Below, one piece after another: positions 3,713 through 63,101 of a stretch of 64,000 nucleotides of DNA (within the stretch, counting starts at the first letter, position 1; every line of letters begins with the position of its first letter). Below the pieces are notes generated by a model. It was not told the DNA's origin. It was given only the letters and a program-made list of their open reading frames with translations, and ran no database searches. Source of the DNA: Giardia intestinalis (Eukaryota); assembly GCA_000002435.2 (NCBI GenBank), contig CM018793.1. One strand, given 5' to 3'. Made by a program: the position numbers and the translations under genes.

Positions 3713-5218
3713 TCAAATGAAATAAGACATCTCTCCTTCGCGTTTCCCACTGACAATGTTTATAGCTTCTACAAAGTCTTCATGCACAACGGCTTCTCCG
3801 TGGCGGCGAAGACATACTAGTCCAGCCTCCATACAGACGGCCTTGAGCATAGCTCCACTATATTCATTAGTGGACTTGGCTATTTCCTGCAAACCAACAG
3901 CACCTGGCCTGTCACATGTTTCGGGGTCATCACTTCTTCCTATGAGCTTAATTTTCTTGCTATGAATGCACAGGATATCATATCTTCCTTTCTCGTTGGG
4001 GTAGGTAAACTCTATCTTTCTATCGAACCTACCTGACCTGGTTAATGCAGGGTCAAGGATGTCCACCCTGTTTGTGCTGGCAAGAACCTTGATGCGCTCG
4101 TCACAATCAAACCCATCCAGACAGTTTAACAGGGTGAGCATGGTCCTGGTTGAGTCTCGATCGTAGCCACCTGTGTCGGAGCGACGCCCTCCAATAGCAT
4201 CTATCTCGTCAATGTAGATTATGCAACCAGCATCCATGTTCCCCTTGAGCGTGCGCTCCTTTTCAATGAGCGACTTAGCAAGATTGAATGTTTCAATAAC
4301 CATTGCAGAGCCATCCCCGATATACAACTGAACCAGCTGGGTGGCCGTCAATTGTAGGAAGGAGCAGTTTGCTTCGTGTGCTAGTGCACGGGCAAGAGCT
4401 GTCTTTCCAGTCCCTGGGACACCGTACAGAAGTACGCCTTTAGAGGGCTTGATGCCAATTTTCTTAAGAAGATCAGGACGCTGCAGTGGCAGCAAGAAGC
4501 TCTCTTTGATCTGAGATATTTGTTGATCAATACCACCAAGGTCTTCAAATTTGTCCATAGGACGTTCAGTGACCTCCATAGTCTTAACACGAGCATCAAC
4601 CGCTGACGGAAGCTTTTCATAAATAAAATATGTATCTTTGTTGACTGCCACCAGGTCTGTAGGGCGTAGCATCTTGCGTGGAACTGCCCCTGTTGAGGCT
4701 AAGAAGACATAGGTTTTGGAAGATGTTTTAATAATTACTCCCTCTGTTACTGTCGAGCTAGGCTTTGATCGAAGTGCCTGAGTAACCTCTCCATCAAGGC
4801 CCAGCGTGGCACGATCACTGTCTGCAAACTCCTCTTCTTTGAGCATGGCTTCCAAGGAGGAATCTGTGTTCTTTGCTGTACTTTCAGAGTCTCGATCTAT
4901 GAGACTTTTCAGCTGCCGCTCGTAGGTCTTCTTTGTGGTGGCAGTTACTTCATAGTTCAGATTCAAGTGATCCTCTGAGATCTCCACAAACTCTGAGACT
5001 GTTGCTACAAGGAGTGGCAAACGCTTTGAGTTCTCTAGGTCCCTTCTATTCTTTTCTAAAAGGCCCGTGGCCTCCCGGATAATGCTCTGGTAACGTTCAT
5101 GTTCACGTCTCAAAAACATGGCCTCGGACTTGATCGCTTCTATGCGCTGCGACAGCATAGCATCATCGAAGCTCTGTATCTCGGGATCGATGGGAATTTC
5201 GGGGAAGTCTTGAGACAT
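3713..5218 (-). CDS. 26S proteasome regulatory subunit, AAA ATPase of the Rpt family
   Basis: N-terminal coiled coil, OB-like segment LRPTDLVAVNKDTYFIYEKLP, ..DLGGIDQQISQIKE.., Walker A GVPGTGKT, Walker B IIYIDEIDAIG, Rpt-like YIGDG motif; ATG at 5216-5218 (minus) behind an A/T tract. Confidence 0.8.
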   Translation of the reverse strand: MSQDFPEIPIDPEIQSFDDAMLSQRIEAIKSEAMFLRREHERYQSIIREATGLLEKNRRDLENSKRLPLLVATVSEFVEISEDHLNLNYEVTATTKKTYERQLKSLIDRDSESTAKNTDSSLEAMLKEEEFADSDRATLGLDGEVTQALRSKPSSTVTEGVIIKTSSKTYVFLASTGAVPRKMLRPTDLVAVNKDTYFIYEKLPSAVDARVKTMEVTERPMDKFEDLGGIDQQISQIKESFLLPLQRPDLLKKIGIKPSKGVLLYGVPGTGKTALARALAHEANCSFLQLTATQLVQLYIGDGSAMVIETFNLAKSLIEKERTLKGNMDAGCIIYIDEIDAIGGRRSDTGGYDRDSTRTMLTLLNCLDGFDCDERIKVLASTNRVDILDPALTRSGRFDRKIEFTYPNEKGRYDILCIHSKKIKLIGRSDDPETCDRPGAVGLQEIAKSTNEYSGAMLKAVCMEAGLVCLRRHGEAVVHEDFVEAINIVSGKREGEMSYFI

Positions 5219-5746: not shown

Positions 5747-8700
5747 ATGAAGCCGCGGAGTAGTAGATCAGATGTACATCCGAAGAAAGATCTGGTTTAC
5801 CCTAACCCCTTTTGGCCTCCAACGGGGGCCTGTTGTCTACAATCGCCCTTTTCTCTGGATTACCAGGACGCCATGCTTCTGTTGTTTAGGGCCTTGGAGA
5901 GAGCTGTTAATCTCCCCATACTCCGCATGGACGATATGGCGGCCTGCTATACAGTGGCTTTTCAACGTCTTTCACTTTTAAGCTTAGACCATGACAAACT
6001 CAATATCTCATTTACGGACCCCGATAGTGATGCAGATCTACGTATGAAGAAGTCGGCTTCTGATGCCATCTCTTCTGAGGGACCGATAAGCTTTTCCAAC
6101 GCCATTCCTCTCAGACGTTCCACATTACAGGTACTCACAAGTAACCCCTTGGATCTTCTTAACTTGGCCACACAGTTTTATGACTTTCTAAAGTTTCAAA
6201 CAAGACTCCACAGTGAAATTTTGGCACTAATCTATTGTATTCATCGCATCCAAACATGGTCAAACTCTAGCTCAGCACAGGAATCTAATGCATCGTTTCG
6301 CAAACGATCGCATGAGTATTTTAGCTCTTATCTTTCTACATCTTTACAAAACATCAACACTATGATACGGGATTGTCCGCTATTGGTTGATGCCTATCTG
6401 TCCAAAATGGTGTGCATTTCTCTATTACGGTGCTTAGAGCCACAGATTGATACGGGACATAAGGATATGCTAAAGGAATTATTGGGTGTGGCTAACTCAG
6501 GTATTGAAAACGGTAGTGTGCTGCTTGCCCTGTACGATCAGGTGGAATACTACTCTACCAATGAATTCACTGGAGTATACAGTGAGTCTTACCTAATGCA
6601 TCTTACCAATACAATGAAGTCCCTTACACACGGGCTTCTGCTTGGCTGGCACACACTGCGAGCATACAGAGTCAATCTCCTAAGGCAATTGGGAAGGTTT
6701 GATGATGCTTGTACCGAGGCCCGAGAACTCATTAAGCTAACCATTACGACCATGCAAGGCGAGAAGCACCTTTCTGCTTCTCTTTGTACTTGTGTGTCAG
6801 ATACTCTCACTCTTGAACCCTTAGATCCTATCATGTTTGTTGCCCAGCAAACTAATTTTGTCCCCGTGCATTCAAAAGGGTACAATGGATTTGTTCAGCT
6901 CCCACCTCCCTTTCAGTTAGAGTTGGATAATTCCTTATCTTCATTCAGTAGTCAAAATGCTATGGGCAATACAACGACAATCAAGTTTCCCTCACTAAGA
7001 GATATCTACATGTCCTCGCCAATTGGCACTAGTCTGCCACCTGAGCCAGAAAGCTCCAACTCTAATGACCCCGTCAACACCTCAATCAACGTACCCATAA
7101 ACGTAGACCAGTCCGCTTCTTTTACTGATAAGATGAGTAGTCGGCAGAAGACAAACGCCCAGGCTGCAAACACTAAGGCTAAAGATTTAAGCCACAAGGG
7201 CAGATCCCTGTCAGATACTAGTAATATGGGATGCCCAATCCATAGCGCAAGCTCTAAGCATCTAGACTATCGCTTGACTTACTTATTGGCAGTTTTGGAA
7301 GCAGGCTATGATGACGAAGCCTTCGAATACCTCATGTCTGGGGTTTTCCGCAGCAGGCTTTTCTCAAGGCTTAAGGCCAATTTGGATTACGGCACCATTT
7401 ATACCACTCCCAAGAAGTCCGATTATATTAGGTTTGAAGTTCAGAACGACGAAAAGTATCACTACCATACTACTGCCACCTCTGTCAATCCTTCGCCCGT
7501 GCACTACCCAACTTATTATAGGCATTACTCAGAGGGTCTGAATCACAAGTGTGTTGACGACTATTTTGCCAATGGCCCGCAACCTGTATGTAAGGACTGC
7601 ACGAAGAGGACATCTCATGGAGCGCGTCCGCATTTCGTTGTTAGGAATGATGGTGCCTACAATCAGTATACTATGCATAGCTTCCTAGCACGACACAACA
7701 AACTCTTGACCAATATACTGTATCAACGCGCCTACAAGCACATCAACCACATGTTTACAAGCAAGCACGGTACCATTCATAATAGGAAGCCACTCAGCAA
7801 ACTCTCACTTGGTCGCCTGAAGCCGTCGACAAACTTCGTTCACAATCTGAGGATGTCATTCGATCCCAAACTTCTTACTATTATCAATTGTTACTTTTCG
7901 AGTCAGATACGTGGACCTCTGTCTCGCATTCTCTTCTACGGGCCATACTACCAGTTTAGATGCACAAGCGATAAGCCCTATACATCCTTTGAAGACATCC
8001 AGGACGTGATTGATATAATATCATCTTCTAGTCACCACGCTGAACAGCTGCAAGCTCAAGCAATATGGTTTAATTACCATGCGCACAACAACCAAGTAGG
8101 CACCACCACACCTGTGTCTTACTCTATCATTGATTCCCCAGCAAGCATATTCCTATGCACATCAGAGACTAAGGCGACCAACTCACTATTGCGCACAACT
8201 CCACTGACCACTACGGTAACAACCTATACACTATTATTCTTACTTCTGAAGAGGAGGGCAACATGGGCTAATAAGCTTGCGCAGTCGATCTTTGCCGAAA
8301 GGATGCTCGGTTGCAATTGTGCGCGGTCCTCTATGCTTTTCAAGAGGTCCATGAATGTGATGGACCTAGCTATGGCATGGCCAAAGAAGTGTCTGCATCT
8401 TAAGATTATGCCTTCCATGTTGCTCACGGATTTGGGAGTACGGCCTGCAATACCGTCTACCAAGCTGCTACAACTGGCTTTCTCAACAAATCCGTACGTC
8501 GTTGAGTATCTGTTAGCAAAGGCGGTCTTGCCAAGCAAGGTGGCGTTATATGGCCTGACCCTTCTATTCGATGCCAGCGCCTGTGAAGACCCAGATTGCC
8601 TTCTGGTTGCCCAGTATCCCAACGAGGACCTTCAGCTTAGTACATACAGACATGCCGTGCGTGCGTGGCAGGATCGCTACTGCAGGTCATCAGAGGAGAA

Positions 8701-11700
8701 GCAAGGCACATATACTATCGACCCAAAAGCTGCCTCGTGCACAGAAGCCAGGGACAAGGACATGAGGAAAACTGCCTCGCGACTGCGCCTATCAGAACGT
8801 CGTAGGGCTCTTTTCCAGCTAGTGCAGGATCAGCGTAAGCTGGAGGCAGCAATCTACGCTTCAGAATTTGGTGGTTTATGGGGATCAAACGCTCTCTATT
8901 TGCAAATATATGCACTTGCAGAGAAGCTAGCGACGGAAGACGGTATAATGGCCGGTATTCCTTTCTCGTTTTATATTCGCTCTTTGCGGATAATCACTTT
9001 GGGGGCTTGTGATGAGTGTGGGAACAGCTTCCTCAATGGAAAGGGAGTGCAGCTATCCTCGCATGGATATCTGCATATAGCCTCATTAGACTTCTTGCTA
9101 CAGGCATATGTGCAGTATTTGCAATTCGAAGCGGCCAGCACTCTGAGATCTTTAGCAATTCATACGTCTATTACAGCAAAGTCATATCCCGCAGACATTA
9201 TAGATACCACGGATGCCTTGGACACTAAGGATATTAAGGACACAAGCACATCGCTACGAGAAGCATTCTTCAAGAGATGGAGGCTAATATGGAGGGCGAC
9301 GCTACTGCAATTCAAGGGATACCCGCCATACCTATCTCTTCGCTCAGCCCAAGCCATGAAGGAGCTATTTTATAACATGATATTCACTCACAGAAACGTA
9401 TCTACTCCCGATAAGCCTGGCATGCTCAGTTACGTTAACCCTCTGTTGTGTCTTCTAAACACAAATTCACAGTTCCTAGACATCATGACACTTGCATCTA
9501 CAGCCGCGAATGACAAGAATGGCTTACTGTCGCTTCTCCAGAGCTATCTGGTGGCATTCATGTCTGGCAATCAGAAGGAGCTATTTTCTGTCTCAGCTAT
9601 AGAATCTCAGCCAACAAATGTCTATTTCGATATGCCTATCTTTGTCGTATTCTTTTCGTTGACAATTATTTCCATTTTAGAGTTCAAGCCCTCTTTCGCA
9701 CCTGGCAGCCTTCTGTCGGAGTTCACCAGACTTACTACTTTCTCGCCTATTACCGACGCAACCACATCTGCAGGACTACTATTTTATTCTGCAAATGACT
9801 TAAGCCACCACTATATTAGTCCAATGAGCAAGACAAAGAAGCATATATCTTTAACACTATTGAATTGCATGGCTCTCGGTATGCTGTCCAGGAAGGAGGA
9901 CGCCTCTAACGCCCAGATAATAGGCAACAACGCCACGTCATCGAGCGCAGCAACATTCATAGCAAATCGTGATGCATACAAAGCGCTGCAAGGCTCGACT
10001 TGTGATACCCTTGACAAGTGGCTGTCTACTAAAGTCTTAGCCACAAGCAAAATATCATCTCTATCGTTTCAATCAGGATCTAATACCCAGCATGATGTGC
10101 GAGGAAAACGCAAACCTGCGCGTTATATGAAATCATTAAGCTACCAGCACAAGCGATCACCACCGCCGTCGCGTGCACTCGAGCCACATCATTCGCAGAA
10201 TATTGACGATATATTGCTGTCTTCGTTCTATATTGATGATGAGAATAGGCTTTATAGGAGCTTTCTTCGTAACCCCGGTCTTTCCTTGCGTCTTTCTAGG
10301 CTTCAGCGAACTCAGTACTTTGGACTGGCAACATTAAATACTATACTGGAGATGGAGGACATCATTGAGCGCATGTTTGTTACAGTTAACTATAGCGTCT
10401 CAGATCTTATTCTCATATACTTCATGGCACACTCTTTCGATCATACAAGTAGAAAGGCTAATCTGTCCTATATTTACGACTCGGACGCGGTTCTAAACTA
10501 CCGATGCCCAATATCTTCTTTTGGAACGGCCAACATGCCACCTATCTACTATCTTGTGGAGACGGGACAAGATGAAGTCTTTATGCTGCTTATGGAACGA
10601 GTGATATCAGCACTTTCTTATAGAAACCACCTTTCTACCTTAGAGGAGAACTCCACCTCTACCGCCAGCGATTGTCCTGTCCTTCCCGAAGAGTTTTGTG
10701 GATATTCCTTTTCACTGGCCGAAGATATGGTCCTGAAAGTAGACCATGAAGATAGTGACGTGGTGTTAGAGGCTGATTCTAATTCACCACTTCTAACGTA
10801 CTTGGCGGCACGACGAAAGGCCAGACTAGGACCATCCTCTGATCTAGATTTGGATGCGTTTGTTACCCCTAGTACAATCTCCTTCGGTGGAACTCACAAG
10901 ATAGCAATCTATGAGGCTCAAGCAAAGATCTTGAATATCCCCTTATCTAGAGCCGAGATTGATGCCCTCTATACCGCCAAAACGTTATCTAAACAAGAAA
11001 TTGAAACCTGCCTGAACCCCCTGTGGGCAAACATAGTTGGATCCACCAAGCTACTGCGCAGTAGTATTGATAGCTTGGTCCACTGCTGCTACAAAGGAGA
11101 GACGCTGCTTCATGCTGCATCTAAGAGGGATCACCTACATATTATTGAGCTAATTCTATTAATTTTTCCAGTAGATTGTTATGATCTATTACGCTCTTTT
11201 TATGCAGCTCTTCTGAATCACTCGTCGGGCGCTCTTCGTCTCTTTCTTCCCAGTCCACTTCATCCATCTCTTGAAGGTGTTAGAGATATAGCAGCAGATA
11301 TAAAAGAGGGCATTTCCACAATCACCACAGAGACTCCGGAGTGCAAGTACTTACTGAAGCACTCCATAGCCGCTGCCTCTGCTCTCTCTGATATGTCTAA
11401 TATTCTACTGAACTCGTTTTCGTACGATGTCAATCCGCTCTTGAAACTTGGCTCAGGCGAGTCTCCTTTCTCGCCTTTAGCCAACCATGAACAGCTAGCC
11501 GATAAGCTTCAAGAGTTCCAGCAGCTCGTCTCATCCAGTCAGTATTACTCCTTTCTTGCATGGGCACACCTTGTTAGGACATTGCGGCCATTCTGCTCTG
11601 GCACTACAGGCGGTGTCTCCTGCTTACACTGTCATCATGCTAAGTCGAGCCCCTGCAAGAAGAGCAATCTCCTTAAATATCTGTCGTTCGCGAAGACTCA

Positions 11701-21079: not shown

Positions 21080-21126
21080 TAAAATTAAATTGAATTCTTG
21101 CAAGCGAAAAGCGGCTCAGGCGAGCT

Positions 21127-21411
21127 ATGGCCAAGAGGACTAAAAAGGTTGGTCTCACCGGGAAGTACGGCACTCGCTATGGGAGGGCTGCCCGCAAGCA
21201 GCTCCTCAAGATAGAGACCAGCCAGAAGGCGAAGTACACATGCCCTTTCTGCGCCAAGGACAAGGTGCGTAGGACGGCCTGCGGGATCTGGACCTGCAGG
21301 TCCTGCTCCAAGACGATGGCCGGCGGCGCGTACAGCCTCCACACAGAGCCTGCCAACGCAGCCAGGGCCACGATCCGCCGCCTCCGTCTGGCCCGTGAAG
21401 ACGCACAGTAA
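21127..21411 (+). CDS. RPL37A: 60S ribosomal protein L37a (eL43)
   Basis: [19 protein letters not shown]...CPFC...CRSC C4 zinc ribbon typical of eL43; 94 aa; AGTAAAC poly(A) motif directly after the TAA stop. Confidence 0.95.
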
Positions 21412-21418
21412 AGTAAAC
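21412..21418 (+). terminator. Giardia-type polyadenylation signal AGTAAAC after RPL37A stop
   Basis: AGTRAAY consensus 1 nt after TAA. Confidence 0.6.
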
Positions 21419-21463
21419 AGAGTGGACCTGGCACTGCGGTTTGCAACTGTCTGCATAGCTCGT

Positions 21464-22033
21464 TTACTCGTCCTCGAGCCAGTTGCTGTCCCGGATGAAG
21501 GTCAACATCTCGAGCACAAGGGAGTCCGTACTGTGGATGCTTGCGTAGAGGAGGCGGTCCATGAGGGATGGAGGCTTCTCCACAAGAAGCACCTGAGACC
21601 GCCTGCCACGCTCGACCATCCTTTGGGTATACCCCTGCTTGAAGCGGTTTGTCTCTGGAGGACTCGTGTATGCCCCAGATTCTCGGAGGCGTCGTCGTGC
21701 ATCCTCGCGCTCCTGCTTGTTACGCGCCGTAGGATAGTTTCTTTTGCGCTCACTAGTCCATGTTTCACCTCCCTCTCGCTGCTGTGGGGTCAGGCGCCGC
21801 ACGGTCGCCGGTATGAGCTCGCTAGACATTTAATCCACTAATTTTGCTGCGTGCTCAAGCCTCCTGTTATACAGTTCCATCAGGGTGTCGTACTCCGAGT
21901 CTGCAAAAGGGTCGGTGTCTGGCACTGCTTGCGGGGGCTGCATCTGTGCAGGCGCAGGTGGGGCAGGTATATATTTCTGGCATCCATCGACCATGTAACA
22001 CAGCGGCTCGAAGGAGGCAGTCGGCCGATCCAT
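21464..22033 (-). CDS. hypothetical small basic protein gene interrupted by one in-frame TAA (ORFs 21833-22033, 67 aa, and 21464-21829, 121 aa, same frame)
   Basis: Upstream ORF begins at ATG 22031-22033 behind an AT-rich tract; TAA at 21830-21832 is followed directly by ATG 21827-21829 in the same frame; both parts GC3-rich and protein-like; combined 189 codons. Confidence 0.45.
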
Positions 22034-22045
22034 AGAAAATTAAAG
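22034..22045. promoter_or_regulatory. 12-bp AT-rich bidirectional promoter/initiator (agaaaattaaag) between divergent ATGs
   Basis: Minus ATG ends at 22033, plus ATG begins at 22046; only AT-rich 12-mer between them. Confidence 0.5.
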
Positions 22046-22429
22046 ATGCACGTTGAGGTTAGGGTCGGACAACCCGTGCCCGCCAGCCTCCAGAGTGCTT
22101 TCGATATTCAGATACGGCCCGCCCCAAACCTGGGCCTGGCAGTAGAGCAGGCGGCCGAGATCCAAAGCTTCCTGGAGTCTGCTCTCCCGCCGTGCGTGGC
22201 CATGGAAGAGCTGCGAGGATTCCAGACGGCGATTACCGTCTACATTATGCTCGTAGACGACGCCTCTACGGATGCGTTCGCAAACCTCCTGGGAAGCGTG
22301 CTGCGCGCACTCGAGCGGGCAGGAGTCCCCGTCCTGGGCATCCCCGTCGCGCAGCCGCTCTGGGGGTCCTTCACAGCCCTGACGCTCCCCGGCACAGACC
22401 TAGTCGTCAGTGTCCAGCGCGGGAAGTGA
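22046..22429 (+). CDS. hypothetical protein (127 aa)
   Basis: ATG behind aaaattaaagATG; protein-like composition (MHVEVRVGQPVPASLQSAFDIQIRPAPNLG...); ORF-track N-terminal extension from 21851 would overlap the divergent gene and is rejected. Confidence 0.5.
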   Translation: MHVEVRVGQPVPASLQSAFDIQIRPAPNLGLAVEQAAEIQSFLESALPPCVAMEELRGFQTAITVYIMLVDDASTDAFANLLGSVLRALERAGVPVLGIPVAQPLWGSFTALTLPGTDLVVSVQRGK

Positions 22430-22457
22430 ACTGCAGGGCTTGTTTACTGGGCGGGGC

Positions 22458-22637
22458 TTAGAGCTCGAGGGCTCCCTCCGGGCAGGCGGACACGCAGGCG
22501 CCGCACTCGACGCAGGCGTCGATGTTCGGGGTCAGGACCACCTTGGCGCCTTGGGGAAGCTCGAAGACAGAGACGGGGCACGCGTCGACGCAGGCGCCGG
22601 CGGCAGAGCACTTGGAGGCAGTGAGCTTGATGGGCAT
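22458..22637 (-). CDS. bacterial-type ferredoxin, 7Fe-like ([3Fe-4S] CxxAxxCxxxCP + [4Fe-4S] CxxCxxCxxxCP), 59 aa
   Basis: MPIKLTASKCSAAGACVDACP...CVECGACVSACPEGALEL; ATG behind AAAATG; AGTAAAC poly(A) motif (22442-22448, minus) 10 nt after the stop. Confidence 0.85.
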   Translation of the reverse strand: MPIKLTASKCSAAGACVDACPVSVFELPQGAKVVLTPNIDACVECGACVSACPEGALEL

Positions 22638-22805
22638 TTTAAAATCGCCATAAAAGTAAAAACTCCTTTTTGTGGCACCACAAATTTTAAGCACCCGGAC
22701 AGTTTGGCGATTTCGCAATATTGAGTGTATCGTGGGCCGGCTTTCATCATAGCCCATTAGGTACATAAAAACAGAGTTTTTACTTTTTGAACACGCTTTA
22801 TACTC

Positions 22806-23243
22806 ATGCGCGGAGTCCTCTCTGCTCTCCCCAGCACTTTCCACAGCCACTTTGTCCCACCATCCGTGGCACCGCTTCCTAGTGCTGGGCCTAAAAGTGC
22901 CTCGGAACCTTCTCTCCCCCTCGTTGGAGACCACCTGCATACTCTCGAACCATATGCACAGCAGCTCACAGCACAACAACAGAAGCGTCCTCGGTTCCGG
23001 CTGCTGGTGGCAAAGCTTCCCCGGGGAACGAGCCCTCTCCAGCTAACAACACCACTAGAGCAGGCCTTTCCATGTAGTGTGGATAATATTACACTACCCT
23101 CCAGTAAGCACGGAAAGCGCCCAAGGAATTTTGCCATAATCGACTTGCACTACAGAATCGATCTCTCTAAAGCTCAAGAGGTTTATAGACAGGCCAATCT
23201 AACCATTAAGATGAAGGCTGTGGACGTCAAGGAATCTGTGTAA
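22806..23243 (+). CDS. small RNA-binding protein with RRM-like domain
   Basis: RNP2-like LLVAKLP and RNP1-like RNFAIIDL in the correct spacing; the antisense ORF 22757-23137 is compositionally junk. Confidence 0.5.
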   Translation: MRGVLSALPSTFHSHFVPPSVAPLPSAGPKSASEPSLPLVGDHLHTLEPYAQQLTAQQQKRPRFRLLVAKLPRGTSPLQLTTPLEQAFPCSVDNITLPSSKHGKRPRNFAIIDLHYRIDLSKAQEVYRQANLTIKMKAVDVKESV

Positions 23244-56812: not shown

Positions 56813-57051
56813 GATAATTTATTTTAATTTCAGTAAGCCAACGGTGATTGCTACATGCCCCTCTGTTGCACAAATGCAGGCCGAAACAGTGTTCCTCGGG
56901 CAATGGACACGAAGAGCCCTTTTAATTTTAAAGTAATCTTCTGTGAGCACTCTGAATCATAGTCAAAGTGTGCTGGCATACAGATCCTACGAGATAAAGT
57001 GTGTTGAGAACCAATATTATTGATATTAGATTACTTAACTTAAAAAGCCGA

Positions 57052-57411
57052 ATGGAGGCCTTTGTTGATGTTCGAATGCTCGGTTTGTGGGCGTCGTCTA
57101 AGGCGGCTACATGTACTAACGAGATCTCAGAGTGCCAGGATGTCATGCACTTCCTGCTGGCAGCAGAGGAGCTACTGCTATCAGGAAAGAGTGAGCGGAA
57201 GGTTCTCGTGCACTTAGGTTGCGACGTCTACGAGCCTGGTCTTTGCGACTTAAATGGGTGGATAAAGATCCACCTCGGCGCAGGGATTGTGGTTGAGATG
57301 ACCTATGCAGAGGCCAAGAAGTATTTGACACGGCGGATTCGTGATCTTACCGATGAGATAGACGAACTTCATAAGACCATGGCTGATTGCGCAGCTTTAT
57401 GTTCTAATTGA
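57052..57411 (+). CDS. prefoldin alpha-type subunit-like protein (119 aa)
   Basis: ORF-track start 57001 is GTG; ATG 57052 behind TTAAAAAGCCGAATG; helix-hairpin-helix pattern with central VLVHLGCDVY...IHLGAGIVVEMTYAEAKKYLTRRIRDLTDEIDEL resembling the PFD5/UXT beta-hairpin and C-terminal helix. Confidence 0.5.
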   Translation: MEAFVDVRMLGLWASSKAATCTNEISECQDVMHFLLAAEELLLSGKSERKVLVHLGCDVYEPGLCDLNGWIKIHLGAGIVVEMTYAEAKKYLTRRIRDLTDEIDELHKTMADCAALCSN

Positions 57412-58044
57412 GACCTATCCTGTCTTATTCACTGTCTACACCTCAAGATAGCCACTTATCATTCTAGCAGCTAGAGTTCTCAACTCTCCAGTGTTATGTC
57501 CTTGTTGGATCGCCCATAACTATCTGGTGCGTTGTACCGTAGTTTTCGATGCACGTATGCAATGCAGTATCCGATTGTATCTCTATTCGGCAAACGTGAG
57601 ATGTACTTGGATTTACCCTTGAGGCAGAGTATTCATCTTATTAGACGCAACAGTGCTGCCGACCAAGCCACTGCTAGGCAGAGCACACGGCCTGTATCTG
57701 CTCATCTCGTGCTCTAGCCAGCCACCCTGCGTGAGCATCTGGAGACATGCCTGGACATATGTGTGGTATTCTGCGGTGTGTACGGTCCCGTGTCCACGCA
57801 GTAGGCCAGCCAGAGAGCGTGTGCAGGCACGCCATGTGGCACCACGTCCTTTGTGGAGCGCTGGAGGAATACACAGGTGAGGGTCTACCATCAAGATGCG
57901 GACACGTTGCTTCCTGACATGGAAGGTCAATGAGGCTATCCAGATGGCCCAGCTATGGTAGAAGGCTAGCAGATGTGATCGTATTGGCCATCAGCACTGT
58001 CACTAACACCAACATGCATGACTAATGGACCTAGCAGGGCCGCA

Positions 58045-59610
58045 ATGTTGCTACTAGTTCTCTGCTTTTTGATGAGCGCCCTCGCCGCGCAACGCACTAA
58101 ACAACCCACATCCGACTGCGGAGTCGCAAACTGCGCCCAGTGCAACGCGGACGGCAGGACGTGTGATCAGTGCAGCGAGGGGTACAACCTCAACCAGGAG
58201 AAGACCCAGTGCACCAAGGCGTGCGCGGTCGCAAACTGCGCCCAGTGCAACGCGGACGGCAGGACGTGTGATCAGTGCAGCGAGGGGTACAACCTCAACC
58301 AGGAGAAGACCCAGTGCACCAAGGCGTGCGCGGTCGCAAACTGCGCCCAGTGCAACGCGGACGGCAGGACGTGTGATCAGTGCAGCGAGGGGTACAACCT
58401 CAACCAGGAGAAGACCCAGTGCACCAAGGCGTGCGCGGTCGCAAACTGCGCCCAGTGCAACGCGGACGGCAGGACGTGTGATCAGTGCAGCGAGGGGTAC
58501 AACCTCAACCAGGAGAAGACCCAGTGCACCAAGGCGTGCGCGGTCGCAAACTGCGCCCAGTGCAACGCGGACGGCAGGACGTGTGATCAGTGCAGCGAGG
58601 GGTACAACCTCAACCAGGAGAAGACCCAGTGCACCAAGAACCCAGAAGCGCGATGCAATACTCCCAACTGTAAGACCTGTGACAGCCCCAAAACAGACAG
58701 TGAAATCTGCACTGAATGTAATAATGGCAACTACCTCACCCCGACAAAGCAGTGCACGCAGAGCTGCGGAACAATAGGAAGCTACTACAACGGAGACAAA
58801 GTGTGCGAGCCCTGTGATCCTAGCTGTGCTGCGTGCATCACAAAGGGACCAGCGAAGTGCACGCTGTGTCCTCCCGGGAAGAGGCTCCAGTACACAGATG
58901 AAGGAGCCACTCAGAACGGCGGATCCTGCGTAGATGAGTGCAAGCCTGAAGGAGGAGCTAGCGGATGCGAGACCTGCGGAGCCACCATCGGAGGGACAAA
59001 GTATTGCTCGAAGTGCAGCACATCCACGGAGGTCCCCGTCAACGGGGTCTGTACAGCAGACAATGCCCGCGCAGCTGCGTGCAAGGTGAAAGATGGCAAG
59101 GGAGGGTGCACTACGTGTGAGAGTGGATACTTCCTCCAAGACGGCGGTTGCTACAAACTCGGTAGACAGCCCGGTGAGCAGATATGCACAGCAGCCAGTA
59201 GCGCTGGTAAGTGCGAGACGTGCGCCAATAGTCTTCAGCCCAATAATGGAGCATGCCCCTCGTGTCACTCGACCTGTAAGACATGTCGTGATGCTAATTC
59301 TGCAAATGCTTGTACAACGTGTGCAGCTGGGTACTATATGGTCGGATCAGCAGCTGGACCATGCACTTCGTGTGACAGCAACAGTGGAAGTGTCAAGGGA
59401 GTTGCTGGCTGCATGAGCTGCGCTCCTCCATCGTCTAGTACTGGCTCCGTCCTTTGCTACCTCATGAACGGTGACAGTGCCGGCGGAAGCACGAACAAGA
59501 GCGGCCTTAGCACAGGCGCCATCGCAGGCATTTCTGTCGCAGTCATCGTTGTCGTGGGGGGTCTTGTCGGCTTCCTCTGCTGGTGGTTCCTCTGCAGGGG
59601 CAAGGCGTAG
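58045..59610 (+). CDS. VSP: variant-specific surface protein (VSP)
   Basis: Signal peptide MLLLVLCFLMSALAA, about 11% Cys in CXXC motifs, GGCY motif, C-terminal TM plus invariant CRGKA tail; AGTAAAC poly(A) motif at 59625-59631; an upstream in-frame ATG at 58018 is possible. Confidence 0.9.
   Translation: MLLLVLCFLMSALAAQRTKQPTSDCGVANCAQCNADGRTCDQCSEGYNLNQEKTQCTKACAVANCAQCNADGRTCDQCSEGYNLNQEKTQCTKACAVANCAQCNADGRTCDQCSEGYNLNQEKTQCTKACAVANCAQCNADGRTCDQCSEGYNLNQEKTQCTKACAVANCAQCNADGRTCDQCSEGYNLNQEKTQCTKNPEARCNTPNCKTCDSPKTDSEICTECNNGNYLTPTKQCTQSCGTIGSYYNGDKVCEPCDPSCAACITKGPAKCTLCPPGKRLQYTDEGATQNGGSCVDECKPEGGASGCETCGATIGGTKYCSKCSTSTEVPVNGVCTADNARAAACKVKDGKGGCTTCESGYFLQDGGCYKLGRQPGEQICTAASSAGKCETCANSLQPNNGACPSCHSTCKTCRDANSANACTTCAAGYYMVGSAAGPCTSCDSNSGSVKGVAGCMSCAPPSSSTGSVLCYLMNGDSAGGSTNKSGLSTGAIAGISVAVIVVVGGLVGFLCWWFLCRGKA
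58114..58638 (+). repeat. 5 x 105-bp perfect or near-perfect tandem repeat inside the VSP CDS (35-aa unit ACAVANCAQCNADGRTCDQCSEGYNLNQEKTQCTK)
   Basis: Copies at 58114, 58219, 58324, 58429, 58534; copies 2-5 identical at nucleotide level, copy 1 differs only in its first ~10 nt. Confidence 0.9.
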
Positions 59611-59624
59611 ATGTGTACTTAGGT

Positions 59625-59631
59625 AGTAAAC
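59625..59631 (+). terminator. Giardia-type polyadenylation signal AGTAAAC after VSP stop
   Basis: AGTRAAY 15 nt after TAG. Confidence 0.6.
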
Positions 59632-60664
59632 GCGTCATTGTGTGTGGCTTATATAAATGTGCTGCTGGGGCTATCTGAGCGTGGCCCAGAGGTCGTGCGG
59701 GTGAGCCCGCTCCTTCCTGGCCAGTCCAGGAACGATGGCTGGTTTTGGATGATATAATAGGGATCTCCCTTCACTTGTATACCAGGAGTCTTTTGCGTCC
59801 CTCAGTTGTTCCGCAGAGGTGTGCTCAGTTCGAGTGTGCGCGTCGCTCAGCCCAGGATTCAACTTACTTGTCCATCTGCATTGTCCACCATTGGTGCCAC
59901 TTCTTGGTCTACCGCTCTGATGCCGGAGGGTCCCAGTAGTTGATGACCCTGGACTGACGCCTCGACAGACCGAAGCATCAGCCCAAGTGTGCTGTGCAGT
60001 GCAGATGGACCAGCCCACACGTCACTGAGCCAGACGCACTGCACAGGGTGAGCGTCGACACGGTCTCGTACTGGATGACGGACCACCTGCAAGAGCGCAC
60101 TGCGATCCATGAGCAGAGGACCATACTTCTCCCCCGATACCAACGCATAGGAGCTGTCCGCCGGCATCCACGAACGCGTACTATGACTCCAAGATAGAGG
60201 CGCACGGGGAGCATACCCTCCGATCATACTCGGAACCGATGATCGCTTCATGGGGAGACAAAGAGGTGCCCCGAGGAACGGGATAGGCACCCGAGGTCGT
60301 GGCGTGCGATCTTCGTCACGGAGCACCAGGGCCACGTGGAGGCCAGGCTGCTGTGACCGACGGTAGCCCCGAGACAACAGGTGCTCACTAGATATCAGAC
60401 GATGGTTGACCCCGACGGGCCAGAGGATGGGAGGAATCTAGAGGCACCGCGAGGAGCGGCAGGTCCCGGGGGAGACAGGATATAGGAGTTCTCCCGCCGG
60501 GATCGAGGGCATCCGACTCTCGGATTTCTGATCTCAGCTATTGTATGAGCGAGAGGCTTGCCCAGGGCGGCAATGGCTCGCATGAAAAGACCACTCCGGT
60601 AGCAGGCGACAACCCCGCCTCATTAAAATTTACTCTTCCCTAACCTCGTCTCTCTAGATATCTG

Positions 60665-61219
60665 ATGGTAGGCCCATTTGACAGTCTTGCAGATGCATTA
60701 ATACGACAGATGAACCTCCAGTTGGAGGACATGCGGCACAATGGAGAATACTCTCTCCTTCTAAGGATCATTCGGGGCCAGACCTCATTAACAGACAGAG
60801 TTGCCAAGAACCAAGAAGCACTATCTGTTGCCCGGAAGAAAGCAGGGGCAATTTTGACTGTATCACGACCTAAGCCACAAACTGACCCTGGATTTATTCA
60901 GAGAACGCAAAAAGCCCTTGAAGAAACACAGGACGCTATCCAGGAGACTCAGCGAAATATAGAGCGTCTCGAAGCCCAGCTAAAAGATGTTACTGCCAAG
61001 ACTGCAAACAAGGATGAATTACGACGTGCTGCATTGACTCTAGCAGACAGAGAAAATGCGGGTAGGGAGGAGCTCGTTGAACTTTATCACAGCATATCGG
61101 GAGTACACTGGGATCAGCCCGACTTGGGATATGTGCTTAGCGAGGAGATTGCAAAACCCATCCGTTTCAGCTCCTGTGTCGATGCCACCAACCAGCTCTG
61201 GGAAATGATTAACATGTAG
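60665..61219 (+). CDS. hypothetical coiled-coil protein (184 aa)
   Basis: Central heptad region (QKALEETQDAIQETQRNIERLEAQLKDVTAK) plus small C-terminal globular part; family uncertain. Confidence 0.45.
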   Translation: MVGPFDSLADALIRQMNLQLEDMRHNGEYSLLLRIIRGQTSLTDRVAKNQEALSVARKKAGAILTVSRPKPQTDPGFIQRTQKALEETQDAIQETQRNIERLEAQLKDVTAKTANKDELRRAALTLADRENAGREELVELYHSISGVHWDQPDLGYVLSEEIAKPIRFSSCVDATNQLWEMINM

Positions 61220-61250
61220 TGACTACATTCACTTCTTACTATGGCTCCGG

Positions 61251-63101
61251 TCATCTTGCCTTTTTCCATCTACTATCTTTGGTAGGAATGCGTACGGGTT
61301 CTGCTAGTTTCCCTTTGCCACGCCCCTTTCCGATTCCTCTGCGAGGCATCATGGGCTTTCTCACTGGGCCCAGCCCTTGTTTCATTGCCCTTGCTGCCCG
61401 TGCATCCGCTCTTCGCATCCGCTCTGTCTTGTGTGACCCGATTGCAAAACTTCCCTGGTAAGTAGAGCGTATTCCCTCTGCATTGGGAAGTAAATAAGAG
61501 GGGACGAATTTCAGGTGCATTGTCATCTGACGTTGTCTTTCTATGAGGGGGTTCGTTTTGATCCGTTTAATCAGGGCCATATCTTTGCTCTGCTGGCTGA
61601 AGTACTTTCGTAAGGAATCTGAAGCCAAAATCTCTGCCTTTATCTCAGAAAGCCGATATTCCTTAATGGCGGAGGGTGTTAGTCCATGCAGCACATCCAC
61701 AACACGGTAGCGGAAGCTCTCCAGGGCTTGGATATTGAACTGAAATGGTGCGAGGAGCTCTTTTCCAAACTCTTCGCGCTGCGCCCGCAATACGTCAAGG
61801 ACGACATCACGATTATCCTTACTATCTTCATGGATAATAGTTATAGCGTGCCCGCAAGGATTGGCGCCACGCGCTGTGCGGCCTATTCTATGGATATAGT
61901 TTATGCTAGACACTGGGCAGTCGAAGTTTAGCACTACATCGACTCTCGTGAAGTCCAGCCCTCTGAAAATTCCGGCCTCCTTTGAGGCTGATGGCGCTGA
62001 TGCTTGCTTCTCTGCTGGGGTGCTAGGGTCATGCTCGGCAGCTTTTGTTGCCATGCTCGAACTATCTGCCTCTTGCACACCTTCAGTTTCCTTATTATCA
62101 GAAGCTTTAGTACCATCTTTGGTATCACTTTTGGTATCATCCTTGGCACTATCCCTGATACTGTCATCAACCGCAATAAGAACATACTCTGCTCCAAGGT
62201 TGTAGCCTTCAATGACTGCTTGCCGAGTCGAGACAGGAAGCTCTGGATTATAAAGAAATGCCTTCTGGCCGAATCGGTACAAGAACAATTTAAGCTTGTA
62301 CGCTGTAGTGACAGAGTTGACAAAGATCACAATGTATCCGCGAAGAATTTGCAGCTTGACAAGGGCATATATTAGCATGTATTTTTTCTCTGTTGTGTCT
62401 AGAGATATTAGATGTTGGACTGGCTGTGTAAGGAGCTTTTGCTCCGTCTCCTCTAGCTTGATAAGCTTTGGCGATCGTAAATGTAGATTGACTATGTTCT
62501 CCAGTTTTTGGTCAAGGGTTGCTGAAAGAAAGAACTTCTGAGCTGACGCGGGCAAATATTCGAGGAGAGCCTCTAGATCGGGACCGTAGTCCATGTCAAA
62601 GATCAAGTCTGCCTCATCGCATACAAACTGGACGATGTTCTTGAGAGAGATCTTGCTGTCTTTGATAAGGTTCATAACCAAAGATGGAGTGGAGATGAGG
62701 ATCTCTGGCATAGACCGCAGAGTAATTGCTTCTGCAGAAGAATTTTCTCCAAGATAAATCGCTGCGCAGGTGACAGTAAATGCGTTGCTTGAAAACTCCT
62801 TTATTATGGCAAGTAGGACCTCCTCGAGCTGGCGACAGAGCTCACGTGTGGGGACCACTATGAGGGCCGTTATGGCGGCCATTGGCTTAACACTCCTAGA
62901 GCGCCCCTGAAGAATGCGATGAAGAATGGCGGTGAGATATATGACAGTCTTCCCGCTACCCGTAAAACTCTGGCAGAGGATATCATTGTGTGCTAAGGCC
63001 TCGGGTATTGCAAGTTTTTGTATAGGTAGTGCCTCATATAAGCCAAGGTTTCGCAGTGCATCGCAGAGTCTAGGATCAATACCGAAGCTCTCCCAATCCA
63101 T
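61251..63101 (-). CDS. DEAD-box ATP-dependent RNA helicase
   Basis: Q-motif region, motif I SFTGSGKT, Ia PTRELCRQ, II DEAD (VCDEADLIFD), III SAT, VI HRIGRTARG, basic K/R-rich C-terminus; ATG behind AATTTAAAAAATG. Confidence 0.9.
   Translation of the reverse strand: MDWESFGIDPRLCDALRNLGLYEALPIQKLAIPEALAHNDILCQSFTGSGKTVIYLTAILHRILQGRSRSVKPMAAITALIVVPTRELCRQLEEVLLAIIKEFSSNAFTVTCAAIYLGENSSAEAITLRSMPEILISTPSLVMNLIKDSKISLKNIVQFVCDEADLIFDMDYGPDLEALLEYLPASAQKFFLSATLDQKLENIVNLHLRSPKLIKLEETEQKLLTQPVQHLISLDTTEKKYMLIYALVKLQILRGYIVIFVNSVTTAYKLKLFLYRFGQKAFLYNPELPVSTRQAVIEGYNLGAEYVLIAVDDSIRDSAKDDTKSDTKDGTKASDNKETEGVQEADSSSMATKAAEHDPSTPAEKQASAPSASKEAGIFRGLDFTRVDVVLNFDCPVSSINYIHRIGRTARGANPCGHAITIIHEDSKDNRDVVLDVLRAQREEFGKELLAPFQFNIQALESFRYRVVDVLHGLTPSAIKEYRLSEIKAEILASDSLRKYFSQQSKDMALIKRIKTNPLIERQRQMTMHLKFVPSYLLPNAEGIRSTYQGSFAIGSHKTERMRRADARAARAMKQGLGPVRKPMMPRRGIGKGRGKGKLAEPVRIPTKDSRWKKAR

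What the first reader, a model, noticed from the sequence alone, without database searches (positions are those of the whole stretch)
59632..60664. About 1 kb GC-rich, ORF-free block immediately downstream of the VSP gene
This genome packs genes 12-170 bp apart, yet here there is roughly 1030 bp with no ORF longer than ~170 codons, and none of those short ORFs is protein-like. The block lacks the AT-rich initiator tracts seen elsewhere. It could be a non-coding RNA locus, a decayed gene or VSP remnant, or a VSP-associated regulatory or antisense-transcript region.
Basis: seen in the sequence. Interest (0 to 1): 0.6.

Follow-up and report, generated by a model that had tools for sequence, protein, structure and literature searches.

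The report
Dead retrotransposon fragment beside VSP gene
The 1 kb "empty" GC-rich stretch after the Giardia surface-antigen (VSP) gene is mostly the decayed tail end of an extinct jumping gene (a non-LTR retrotransposon), a kind of relic already known to lie near VSP genes, so it is ordinary rather than a new RNA gene.

Summary
Window 59611-60664 is GC-rich (0.58 against a window mean of 0.48) and has no credible gene.

It is not unexplained DNA. Its core, 59944-60621 (sense on the + strand), is a 5'-truncated, neutrally decayed copy of a dispersed Giardia repeat. I found copies at 75-84% nucleotide identity at six other loci and at 70-77% at the same locus in assemblage E. Fuller copies run collinearly into reverse-transcriptase remnants (Pfam RVT_1; matches to Giardia "Reverse transcriptase/endonuclease" proteins), followed by a CCHC zinc knuckle and a restriction-like endonuclease. 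The window copy keeps only the endonuclease relics and about 270 bp of 3'UTR.

Substitutions are even across codon positions and most indels are not multiples of three. There is no covariation and no Rfam or tRNA match.

The rest of the block is:
- the VSP 3'UTR (59611-59651);
- a 290 bp spacer duplicated with another VSP junction (59652-59943);
- the native promoter of the next gene (60622-64).

By inference the family is the "dead" GilD/Genie 2 family. Retroelement relics in GC-rich, non-syntenic VSP islands are already published.

Verdict: real feature, known kind, low interest.

The parts
58018..59610 (+). VSP gene (context): 530 aa, CRGKA tail, with 4.9 perfect copies of a 105-bp tandem repeat at 58123-58638
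   Evidence: Pfam VSP E 2.9e-98; tandem repeat
59611..59651 (+). VSP 3'UTR with the Giardia-type poly(A) signal AGTAAAC at 59625-59631. Similarity to other VSP 3' ends stops at about 59637-59652.
   Evidence: The AGTRAAY consensus is from my own knowledge.
59652..59943 (.). Spacer of unknown origin. It is shared at about 72-79% only with another VSP-element junction (L011), and its last ~108 bp also with L017. This means it was duplicated together with the truncated element as one DNA segment.
59944..60621 (+). 5'-truncated, decayed copy of a dispersed Giardia non-LTR retrotransposon (dead family, GilD/Genie 2 by inference). It corresponds to about positions 1250-2101 of the ~2.1 kb copy in P15 (L018 3954-6080).
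   Evidence: 75-84% nt identity to copies in L011, L013, L014, L015, L016 and L017; collinear with L018, L014 and L013, which carry RT remnants
59985..60119 (+). Relic of the CCHC zinc knuckle and 'RHD' segment of the retrotransposon ORF (KCAVQCRWTSPHV ... ALHRVSVDTVSYWMTDHLQERTAIHEQR)
   Evidence: The + ORF 59958-60194 hits P0036 at E 1.5e-16. P0036 aligns to the RVT_1-bearing P0048 residues 235-377 at E 9e-6. Coordinates.
60130..60220 (+). Relics of the restriction-like endonuclease motifs, spread over two frames with an internal stop: SPDTNA*ELSAGIHE (PD...D) and PASTNAYYDSKIEAHGEHTL (K motif)
   Evidence: tblastn of the stitched L018 C-terminus against the whole window: 60161-60220, 65% identity, E 4.6e-4; reference motifs in P0048/L018; coordinates
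60300..60353 (+). Relic of the last conserved ORF segment (WRAIFVTEHQGH..., compare FMAYAIFVIEHQHQ in L018 and FMAFAVFSVEYQHH in L021)
   Evidence: the profile hit is weak (E 9.5) but collinear
60354..60621 (+). Element 3'UTR, lacking about the last 20 bp. Other copies end ...GGTGAAACGRAGAGTAAA. In fuller copies this 3' end is repeated in inverted orientation at the 5' end.
60622..60664 (+). Native upstream region and AT-rich initiator of the Spc24-like gene. Synteny with assemblage E and another assemblage resumes exactly here.
59859..60377 (-). Spurious 172-codon antisense ORF (TTG start). Its paralogues are annotated as 'hypothetical proteins' in the WB and DH genomes.
   Evidence: no coding signature

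Best explanation
The block is a composite. Two thirds of it (59944-60621, sense on the + strand) is a dead, 5'-truncated copy of a Giardia non-LTR retrotransposon. The parent element encodes a reverse transcriptase followed by a CCHC zinc knuckle and a restriction-enzyme-like endonuclease. By inference this is the extinct GilD/Genie 2 family.

Shown here:
- The sequence belongs to a dispersed repeat family.
- Fuller members of that family carry RT and endonuclease remnants collinear with the window copy.
- The window copy retains only the endonuclease-coding tail and the 3'UTR.
- It decays without coding or RNA-structure constraint.
- It sits exactly at a synteny break that holds a VSP in this genome and a NEK kinase in assemblage E.

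Inferred:
- The element originally inserted by target-primed reverse transcription.
- The truncated copy plus 110-290 bp of flank, and in one case the VSP 3' end, was later copied by DNA-level segmental duplication.
- The scattered copies now do nothing of their own, except to offer homology for ectopic recombination that reshuffles VSP and NEK cassettes.

The high GC and the lack of ORFs are simply properties of this relic.
For: 1. Repeat family. The antisense ORF has 29 Giardia-only relatives. DNA copies at 75-84% identity occur at six other loci.

2. Link to reverse transcriptase. The ~2.1 kb copy in P15 (L018 3954-6080) gives RVT_1 hits in two adjacent frames (E 3.8e-4 and 0.13). It also hits proteins named 'Reverse transcriptase/endonuclease, putative' with precomputed PF00078. 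P0048 aligns to it at 47% over 322 aa (E 1.5e-81), including CxxCx7Hx4C, RHD, PDLFL and AIDVGV. The window aligns collinearly to L018 element positions 1250-2101 (E 7.7e-23, 2.4e-10, 1.5e-6). L014 carries an RT remnant (E 8e-5), a GGLG motif and the block homologue (81% identity, E 2e-118) in a single collinear copy.

3. Protein-level chain. Window + ORF 59958-60194 matches P0036 (E 1.5e-16), and P0036 matches the RVT_1-bearing P0048 (E 9e-6). The K-motif relic at 60161-60220 scores E 4.6e-4.

4. Neutral decay. Substitutions by codon position are 123/122/139 in the minus frame and 62/51/66 in the plus frame, and indel lengths are mostly 1, 2, 5, 7 or 11.

5. Terminal inverted repeats occur in the fuller copies (L018 134 nt at 84%; L013 61 nt).

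6. Genomic setting. Synteny with P15 ends at 57479 and resumes at 60622.

7. Literature. RT and endonuclease sequences lie at synteny breaks, and VSP and RT form GC-rich islands (PMC3091692). RT remnants lie between VSP pairs and VSP surroundings are gene-poor (PMC7000408). VSP pairs are surrounded by non-LTR relics (bioRxiv 10.1101/2022.03.07.483299).
Against: - The window copy itself has no RT sequence (tblastn of the RT proteins against the window finds nothing).
- Its direct protein similarity to the more intact ORF P0048/L021 is not significant on its own (E 1.6; no hit). The identification therefore rests on transitive nucleotide and protein homology.
- No poly(A) tail or target-site duplication is visible, and the 3' end is clipped.
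- The 59652-59943 spacer remains unexplained.
- I could not compare the block with the published GilD/Genie 2 consensus, so the family name is an inference.
- The copy at the P15 locus is more diverged from the window copy (70-77%) than the orthologous non-coding flank (83%). The two copies may therefore not be strictly orthologous.
Confidence: 0.88

Rival explanations
1. The relic has been co-opted. VSP read-through plus antisense transcription across it would give double-stranded RNA or small RNAs, or a chromatin or recombination signal, that takes part in VSP silencing or switching.
For: Copies lie within about 5 kb of VSP-family sequence at 6 of the 8 loci examined. The element is co-oriented with, and only 334 bp downstream of, the VSP. 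The minus strand folds somewhat better than shuffles (z -2.7, from only 20 shuffles). Giardia retrotransposons are reported sources of small RNAs (PMC10999387).
Against: There is no conservation beyond neutral expectation, and position and orientation relative to the VSP vary between loci: inverted in L014, upstream in L016, next to a NEK in P15. There is no covariation. No expression data were available.
Confidence: 0.07
2. It is a fragment of one of the other Giardia retrotransposon families (GilM or GilT), or of an undescribed fourth family, rather than GilD/Genie 2.
For: I had no reference sequence for any Gil family. L021 carries a far more intact relative (415 aa ORF with RVT_1) only 44-47% identical to the P15 copy, so more than one lineage exists.
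Against: Every copy seen is internal to a chromosome, broken by frameshifts and deletions, and the fuller ones carry terminal inverted repeats. From memory, those are the published hallmarks of GilD/Genie 2. GilM and GilT are telomeric tandem arrays of about 5.5 kb (PMC7000408). The RT query found no long intact Giardia RT ORF.
Confidence: 0.12
3. A structured non-coding RNA gene lies in the block.
For: GC-rich, ORF-free, with local hairpins (inverted repeats I2 and I3). Minus-strand z-score is -2.7.
Against: No Rfam match at E<=1 in 57000-62000 and none at gathering score in the whole window. No tRNA. RNAalifold covariation term is +0.52, and only 8 of 123 pairs show any compensatory change. 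Plus-strand z-score is -1.2. The sequence is fully accounted for as a retroelement relic.
Confidence: 0.02
4. A real protein-coding gene on the minus strand (the 172-codon ORF, whose paralogues are annotated as hypothetical proteins).
For: 29 database proteins match it, several with NCBI or GiardiaDB names.
Against: The full ORF has no ATG start. Paralogue ORFs differ in length and coverage (22-90%). Frameshifting indels separate the copies and substitutions are even over codon positions. No Pfam domain. The opposite strand carries the retroelement ORF relics.
Confidence: 0.01
5. A decayed VSP pseudogene or VSP remnant.
For: It lies immediately downstream of a VSP, and VSP arrays with pseudogenes are common (PMC2996952).
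Against: VSP nucleotide similarity ends at about 59652. tblastn of the VSP protein against the block gives nothing better than E 0.69.
Confidence: 0.01

Closest known systems
GilD (Arkhipova & Morrison 2001), also called Genie 2 (Burke, Malik & Eickbush 2002): the 'dead' non-LTR retrotransposon family of Giardia lamblia
   Same: Chromosome-internal copies only, all broken by frameshifts, stops and internal deletions. RT followed by a C-terminal CCHC and restriction-like endonuclease. Inverted repeats at the ends of the fuller copies. A long 3'UTR. About ten or more copies per genome (at least 8 annotated antisense ORFs in isolate DH).
   Different: The window copy is only the 3' ~680 bp, with no RT, no inverted repeat and a clipped 3' end. 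Identity to the published consensus could not be checked. The description of GilD/Genie 2 is from my memory of those papers. The library confirms only that there are three families, two of them telomeric (PMC3091692, PMC10999387).
Retrotransposon/RT relics in non-syntenic, GC-rich VSP islands (Jerlstrom-Hultqvist 2010, PMC3091692; Xu 2020, PMC7000408; bioRxiv 10.1101/2022.03.07.483299)
   Same: The block sits inside a synteny break between assemblages A and E, next to a VSP, in a GC-rich and gene-poor stretch, exactly as those papers describe.
   Different: Those papers mostly report relics between duplicated VSP pairs, or annotated RT genes. Here the VSP is single and the relic lacks the RT part, so a domain-based annotation would miss it.
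R2 / NeSL / CRE-type non-LTR retrotransposons (REL-endonuclease clade)
   Same: The same domain order in the fuller relatives: RT, GGLG thumb motif, CxxCx7Hx4C, RHD, PD...D...K.
   Different: No sequence-level hit outside Giardia, no PDB match, and no evidence of site specificity.

Membership tests
Non-LTR retrotransposon with RT + REL-endonuclease (family level, using fuller copies) | Reverse-transcriptase domain | tested here: met
   L018 gives RVT_1 at E 3.8e-4 and 0.13 in adjacent frames. Hits to PF00078-bearing 'Reverse transcriptase/endonuclease' proteins. P0048 against L018 gives E 1.5e-81. L014 carries an RT remnant at E 8e-5.
Non-LTR retrotransposon with RT + REL-endonuclease (the window copy itself) | Reverse-transcriptase domain present in this copy | tested here: not met
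   tblastn of P0055 and P0048 against the window finds nothing at E<=0.01. Homology to fuller copies starts at element position ~1250, downstream of the RT. The copy is therefore a 5'-truncated fragment, not a complete member.
Non-LTR retrotransposon with RT + REL-endonuclease | CCHC zinc knuckle and PD...D...K endonuclease motifs C-terminal to the RT | tested here: met
   Intact in P0048/L021 and recognisable in L018. In the window only degenerate relics remain: E 4.6e-4 for the K motif, plus the transitive chain. The direct profile test is weak (E 0.06-9.5, but collinear).
Non-LTR retrotransposon | Common 3' end with a poly(A) signal or tail, variable 5' truncation, target-site duplication | tested here: inconclusive
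   Copies in L017 and L018 end ...GGTGAAACGRAGAGTAAA, and several copies share the right end at about 60586-60621 with variable left extents. The window copy lacks the last ~20 bp. No A-tail or target-site duplication was seen. The shared 5' flank with L011 and L017 shows DNA-level duplication rather than independent insertions.
GilD / Genie 2 | All copies dead (frameshifts, stops, internal deletions), located inside chromosomes | tested here: met
   The loci are flanked by ordinary housekeeping genes.
GilD / Genie 2 | Inverted repeats at the element ends (feature recalled from Burke et al. 2002, not verified in the library) | tested here: met
   L018 16-145 against 1987-2120 (134 nt, 84%) and L013 (61 nt, 77%). 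Absent from the truncated window copy.
GilD / Genie 2 | Nucleotide identity to the published consensus or GenBank entries | not testable with these tools
   No reference sequence is reachable, and the two defining papers are not held.
VSP gene or pseudogene | CXXC-rich ectodomain, transmembrane segment, CRGKA tail, conserved 3' end | tested here: not met
Any Rfam RNA family / tRNA | Match to a covariance model, or tRNA detection | tested here: not met

The most novel reading that the evidence does not exclude
The dead-retroelement fragments that accompany VSP genes are not inert. They could be retained as portable flanks that drive VSP and NEK cassette exchange between islands, through inverted or direct copies acting as recombination substrates. 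They could also, through VSP read-through and antisense transcription, supply double-stranded RNA that feeds the RNAi-based choice of a single expressed VSP.
Probability: 0.06. Interest if true: 0.6.

Novelty: already known. Interest (0 to 1): 0.12.

Why it matters
This matters mainly for annotation.

- It explains a conspicuous gene-free, GC-rich gap as a retroelement relic that domain-based annotation misses, because the RT part is gone.
- It shows that a set of 'hypothetical proteins' in Giardia genomes (GL50803_30984, GL50803_32291 and several DHA2_15xxxx entries) are antisense ORFs over the same dead element.
- It gives one clean example of a synteny-break island (57480-60621) whose cargo differs between assemblages, VSP in this genome and NEK kinase in P15, while the relic persists. 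That fits the published view that such relics mark the unstable, recombining compartments where antigen genes diversify.
- It does not open a new question.

Tried and rejected
- Rfam at E<=1 over 57000-62000 and at gathering score over the whole window: nothing. ARAGORN: nothing.
- Pfam on the minus-strand ORFs: nothing.
- Exact-sequence look-ups of the 172 aa and 115 aa ORFs: not on record.
- Tandem and inverted repeats within the block: only short, chance-level pairs.
- RNAalifold on seven copies: no covariation. Single-sequence folding: + strand z -1.2, - strand z -2.7 with only 20 shuffles.
- PDB sequence search with the + ORF: nothing.
- HMMER search of 1.8 billion proteins with the + ORF: only short Giardia ORFs, plus tandem-repeat artefacts (P0039, P0043-45) that I discarded.
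- Direct tblastn of the intact-ish RT/endonuclease ORF P0048 against the window: no hit in the block. phmmer of its C-terminus against all window ORFs: E 1.6, not significant.
- VSP protein against the block: nothing.
- Literature look-ups for the gene IDs, 'Genie 2', and the two defining retrotransposon papers: not held.
- I first read the TTTACTCTTCC at 60630-60640 as an inverted element terminus. Alignment showed it is the orthologous promoter of the downstream gene, so I dropped that idea.

Full report
**Observation**

The window is Giardia. A VSP gene occupies 58018-59610 (Pfam VSP E 2.9e-98, CRGKA tail, 4.9 perfect 105-bp repeats). The next gene is a 184 aa Spc24-like ORF starting at 60665.

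The 1054 bp between them have GC 0.58 (core 0.61) against a window mean of 0.481. Only 3.3% of equal-sized windows are as GC-rich. The longest ATG ORF is 130 aa and the longest listed ORF is 172 aa with a TTG start on the minus strand. No Rfam family matches at E<=1 and no tRNA is found. However, the window has other ORF-poor stretches (56813-58017 and about 21085-22450), and the last 43 bp of the block are the AT-rich promoter of the next gene.

**First clue: it is repeated**

Every short-read contig that carries the downstream gene stops inside the right-hand ~190 bp of the block, at window 60471-60639.

The 172-codon antisense ORF has 29 relatives, all from Giardia, at 42-87% identity and with very uneven coverage. 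They include GL50803_30984, GL50803_32291 and eight DHA2_15xxxx 'hypothetical proteins'.

I fetched the DNA of six such loci. Nucleotide copies of window ~59944-60621 occur at 75-84% identity in L011, L013, L014, L015, L016 and L017. The left edge is shared at 59944-59950. There are two types of right edge, at about 60413-60425 and about 60586-60621.

In the multiple alignment most indels are 1, 2, 5, 7 or 11 bp. Substitutions are spread evenly over codon positions in both the minus-strand frame (123/122/139) and the plus-strand frame (62/51/66). Neither strand is therefore under coding constraint. RNAalifold finds no covariation: the covariation term is +0.52 and only 8 of 123 pairs show any double change.

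**The orthologous locus**

The Spc24-like protein led to the assemblage E (P15) contig. Synteny with the window runs up to 57479 on the left and resumes exactly at 60622 on the right. The VSP and both its flanks therefore form a 3.1 kb non-syntenic island.

P15 has a 6 kb island there instead. It holds a NEK kinase (kinase plus ankyrin repeats) and a diverged copy of the repeat (L018 5203-6054, 70-77% identity, same orientation) upstream of the NEK. The NEK is bracketed by inverted repeats built from the repeat's right end (5815-6072 against 9278-9502).

**What the repeat is**

Immediately left of the P15 copy, the three plus-strand frames contain SLDITNAFNSIPREEIL, AYADNTLTF, GLTVNTDKC and NGGLGVHLPG.

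- Pfam gives RVT_1 in two adjacent frames, at E 3.8e-4 and 0.13.
- A stitched query from this region hits Giardia proteins named 'Reverse transcriptase/endonuclease, putative' with precomputed PF00078. These include a 415 aa ORF, P0048.
- P0048 aligns to L018 at 47% identity over 322 aa (E 1.5e-81). The alignment runs through the RT, a GGLG motif, a CxxCx7Hx4C zinc knuckle, RHD, PDLFL and AIDVGV. That is the domain order of non-LTR retrotransposons with a restriction-like endonuclease.

The copy in L018 (3954-6080) is about 2.1 kb long and has 134-nt terminal inverted repeats at 84% identity. L013 has shorter ones.

The window aligns collinearly to element positions 1250-2101 of this copy (E 7.7e-23, 2.4e-10, 1.5e-6). 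L014, L013 and L015 are collinear over longer spans. L014 links an RT remnant (E 8e-5), the GGLG motif and the block homologue (81% identity to the window, E 2e-118) in a single copy.

At protein level there is a two-step chain:
- The window's + ORF 59958-60194 matches P0036, an ORF from another copy, at E 1.5e-16 in a 1.8-billion-protein search.
- P0036 aligns to residues 235-377 of the RVT_1-bearing P0048 at E 9e-6, from GGLG through the zinc knuckle to IYEQK.

The window also keeps these relics:
- SPDTNA*ELSAGIHE (compare LPDTNQAVDIGV);
- PASTNAYYDSKIEAHGEHTL (compare AAMSSYYRSKIEAYGERTL; E 4.6e-4 against the whole window);
- WRAIFVTEHQGH.

A direct comparison of the window with the more intact ORF is not significant on its own. 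The identification therefore rests on this chain of homologies.

**Anatomy of the block**

| Coordinates | Content |
|---|---|
| 59611-59651 | VSP 3'UTR with AGTAAAC at 59625-31; VSP similarity stops at about 59652 |
| 59652-59943 | Spacer shared only with L011 (72-79%), where it again joins a VSP 3' end to a truncated element; its last 108 bp are also in L017 |
| 59944-60353 | Endonuclease-coding relics |
| 60354-60621 | Element 3'UTR, clipped by about 20 bp relative to copies ending ...GGTGAAACGRAGAGTAAA |
| 60622-60664 | Native promoter of the Spc24-like gene |

The spacer's distribution means the truncated copy was spread by segmental duplication rather than by fresh retrotransposition.

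**Name and mechanism**

The library confirms that Giardia WB has three retrotransposon families, two of them telomeric and possibly active (PMC3091692; PMC10999387). GilM is about 5.5 kb and lies in telomeric arrays (PMC7000408).

From my own memory of Arkhipova & Morrison 2001 and Burke et al. 2002, the third family (GilD/Genie 2) consists only of dead copies with deletions and frameshifts, and carries inverted repeats. That fits what I see. I could not align to the published sequences. I put 0.88 on 'dead non-LTR retrotransposon fragment' and roughly 0.75 on the name GilD/Genie 2.

The inferred mechanism is an original insertion by target-primed reverse transcription, death of the family, neutral decay, and DNA-level duplication together with VSP flanks. 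The likely present role is none, apart from providing homology for ectopic recombination in the island. A role in VSP regulation through read-through or antisense RNA cannot be excluded without expression data. I give it about 0.07.

**Comparison with what is known**

- VSP, RT and HCMP genes form GC-rich, atypical islands at synteny breaks. [quoted passage not shown]
- VSP surroundings are gene-poor with more allelic variation, and four head-to-head VSP pairs enclose RT remnants (PMC7000408).

The finding is therefore one more instance of a described phenomenon. Its only local interest is that the copy lacks the RT and so escapes annotation, and that its antisense ORFs have been annotated as genes elsewhere.

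**Verdict**

This is a real feature that is now explained, of a known kind and of low interest (0.12).

Noticed in passing
window 21085-22450: A second GC-rich (about 0.60-0.61), long-ORF-poor stretch lies between a 755 aa membrane-protein ORF and a 4Fe-4S ferredoxin-like ORF (22458-22979, minus strand). It holds only overlapping 100-190 aa ORFs on both strands. It has no nucleotide similarity to the retroelement copies, no RT hit and no Rfam hit. One weak NUFIP1 Pfam hit (E 6e-4, below the cut-off) falls on 21464-21829 (-)..
   Followed up: partly
window 58123-58638: The VSP carries 4.9 copies of a 105-bp tandem repeat at 100% identity. vspC5 (vsp90) is described as having ~25 copies of a 105-bp repeat (PMC2996952). 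This gene may be that one with the array collapsed in assembly, or a short-array relative..
   Followed up: no
P0004, P0006, P0008, P0010, P0016, P0020, P0021, P0023, P0025, P0029: 'Hypothetical proteins' GL50803_30984, GL50803_32291 and eight DHA2_15xxxx entries are ORFs on the antisense strand of copies of the same dead retroelement. They show no coding signature and are probably spurious gene models.
   Followed up: partly
L018 5815-6072 and 9278-9502 (P15, assemblage E): At the orthologous island a NEK kinase gene (6105-9176) is bracketed by inverted repeats of 74-130 nt (85-97% complementary) derived from the retroelement's 3' end. A third copy of that end lies at 3969-4043. This looks like a recombination or duplication scar around the NEK gene..
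   Followed up: partly
L001-L010 left ends (window 60471-60639): All short-read contigs carrying the downstream gene break inside the last ~190 bp of the block. The tips of L001 and L002 show variant element sequence. L010 (99.9% identical elsewhere) diverges completely left of about 60630, right at the island boundary. This hints at structural or allelic polymorphism of the island among near-identical isolates..
   Followed up: partly
window 56813-58017: The 1.2 kb upstream of the VSP is also ORF-poor. Its first 667 bp (to 57479) are syntenic with P15 at 83%. The stretch 57480-58017 has no counterpart in any locus fetched..
   Followed up: partly
L021 (ENA ERZ4567601, human gut metagenome, 3080 bp): A much more intact relative of the element: a 415 aa ORF with RVT_1, CxxCx7Hx4C, RHD, PDLFL and AIDVGV, with only a frameshift before the K motif. 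It is 65% identical in nucleotides to the P15 copy. The family may have been active more recently in another Giardia lineage..
   Followed up: partly
window 59652-59943; L011 10355-10702; L017 4551-4672: A spacer of unknown origin travels with the truncated element and, in L011, with a VSP 3' end. It has no similarity to the fuller element copies or to VSP..
   Followed up: partly
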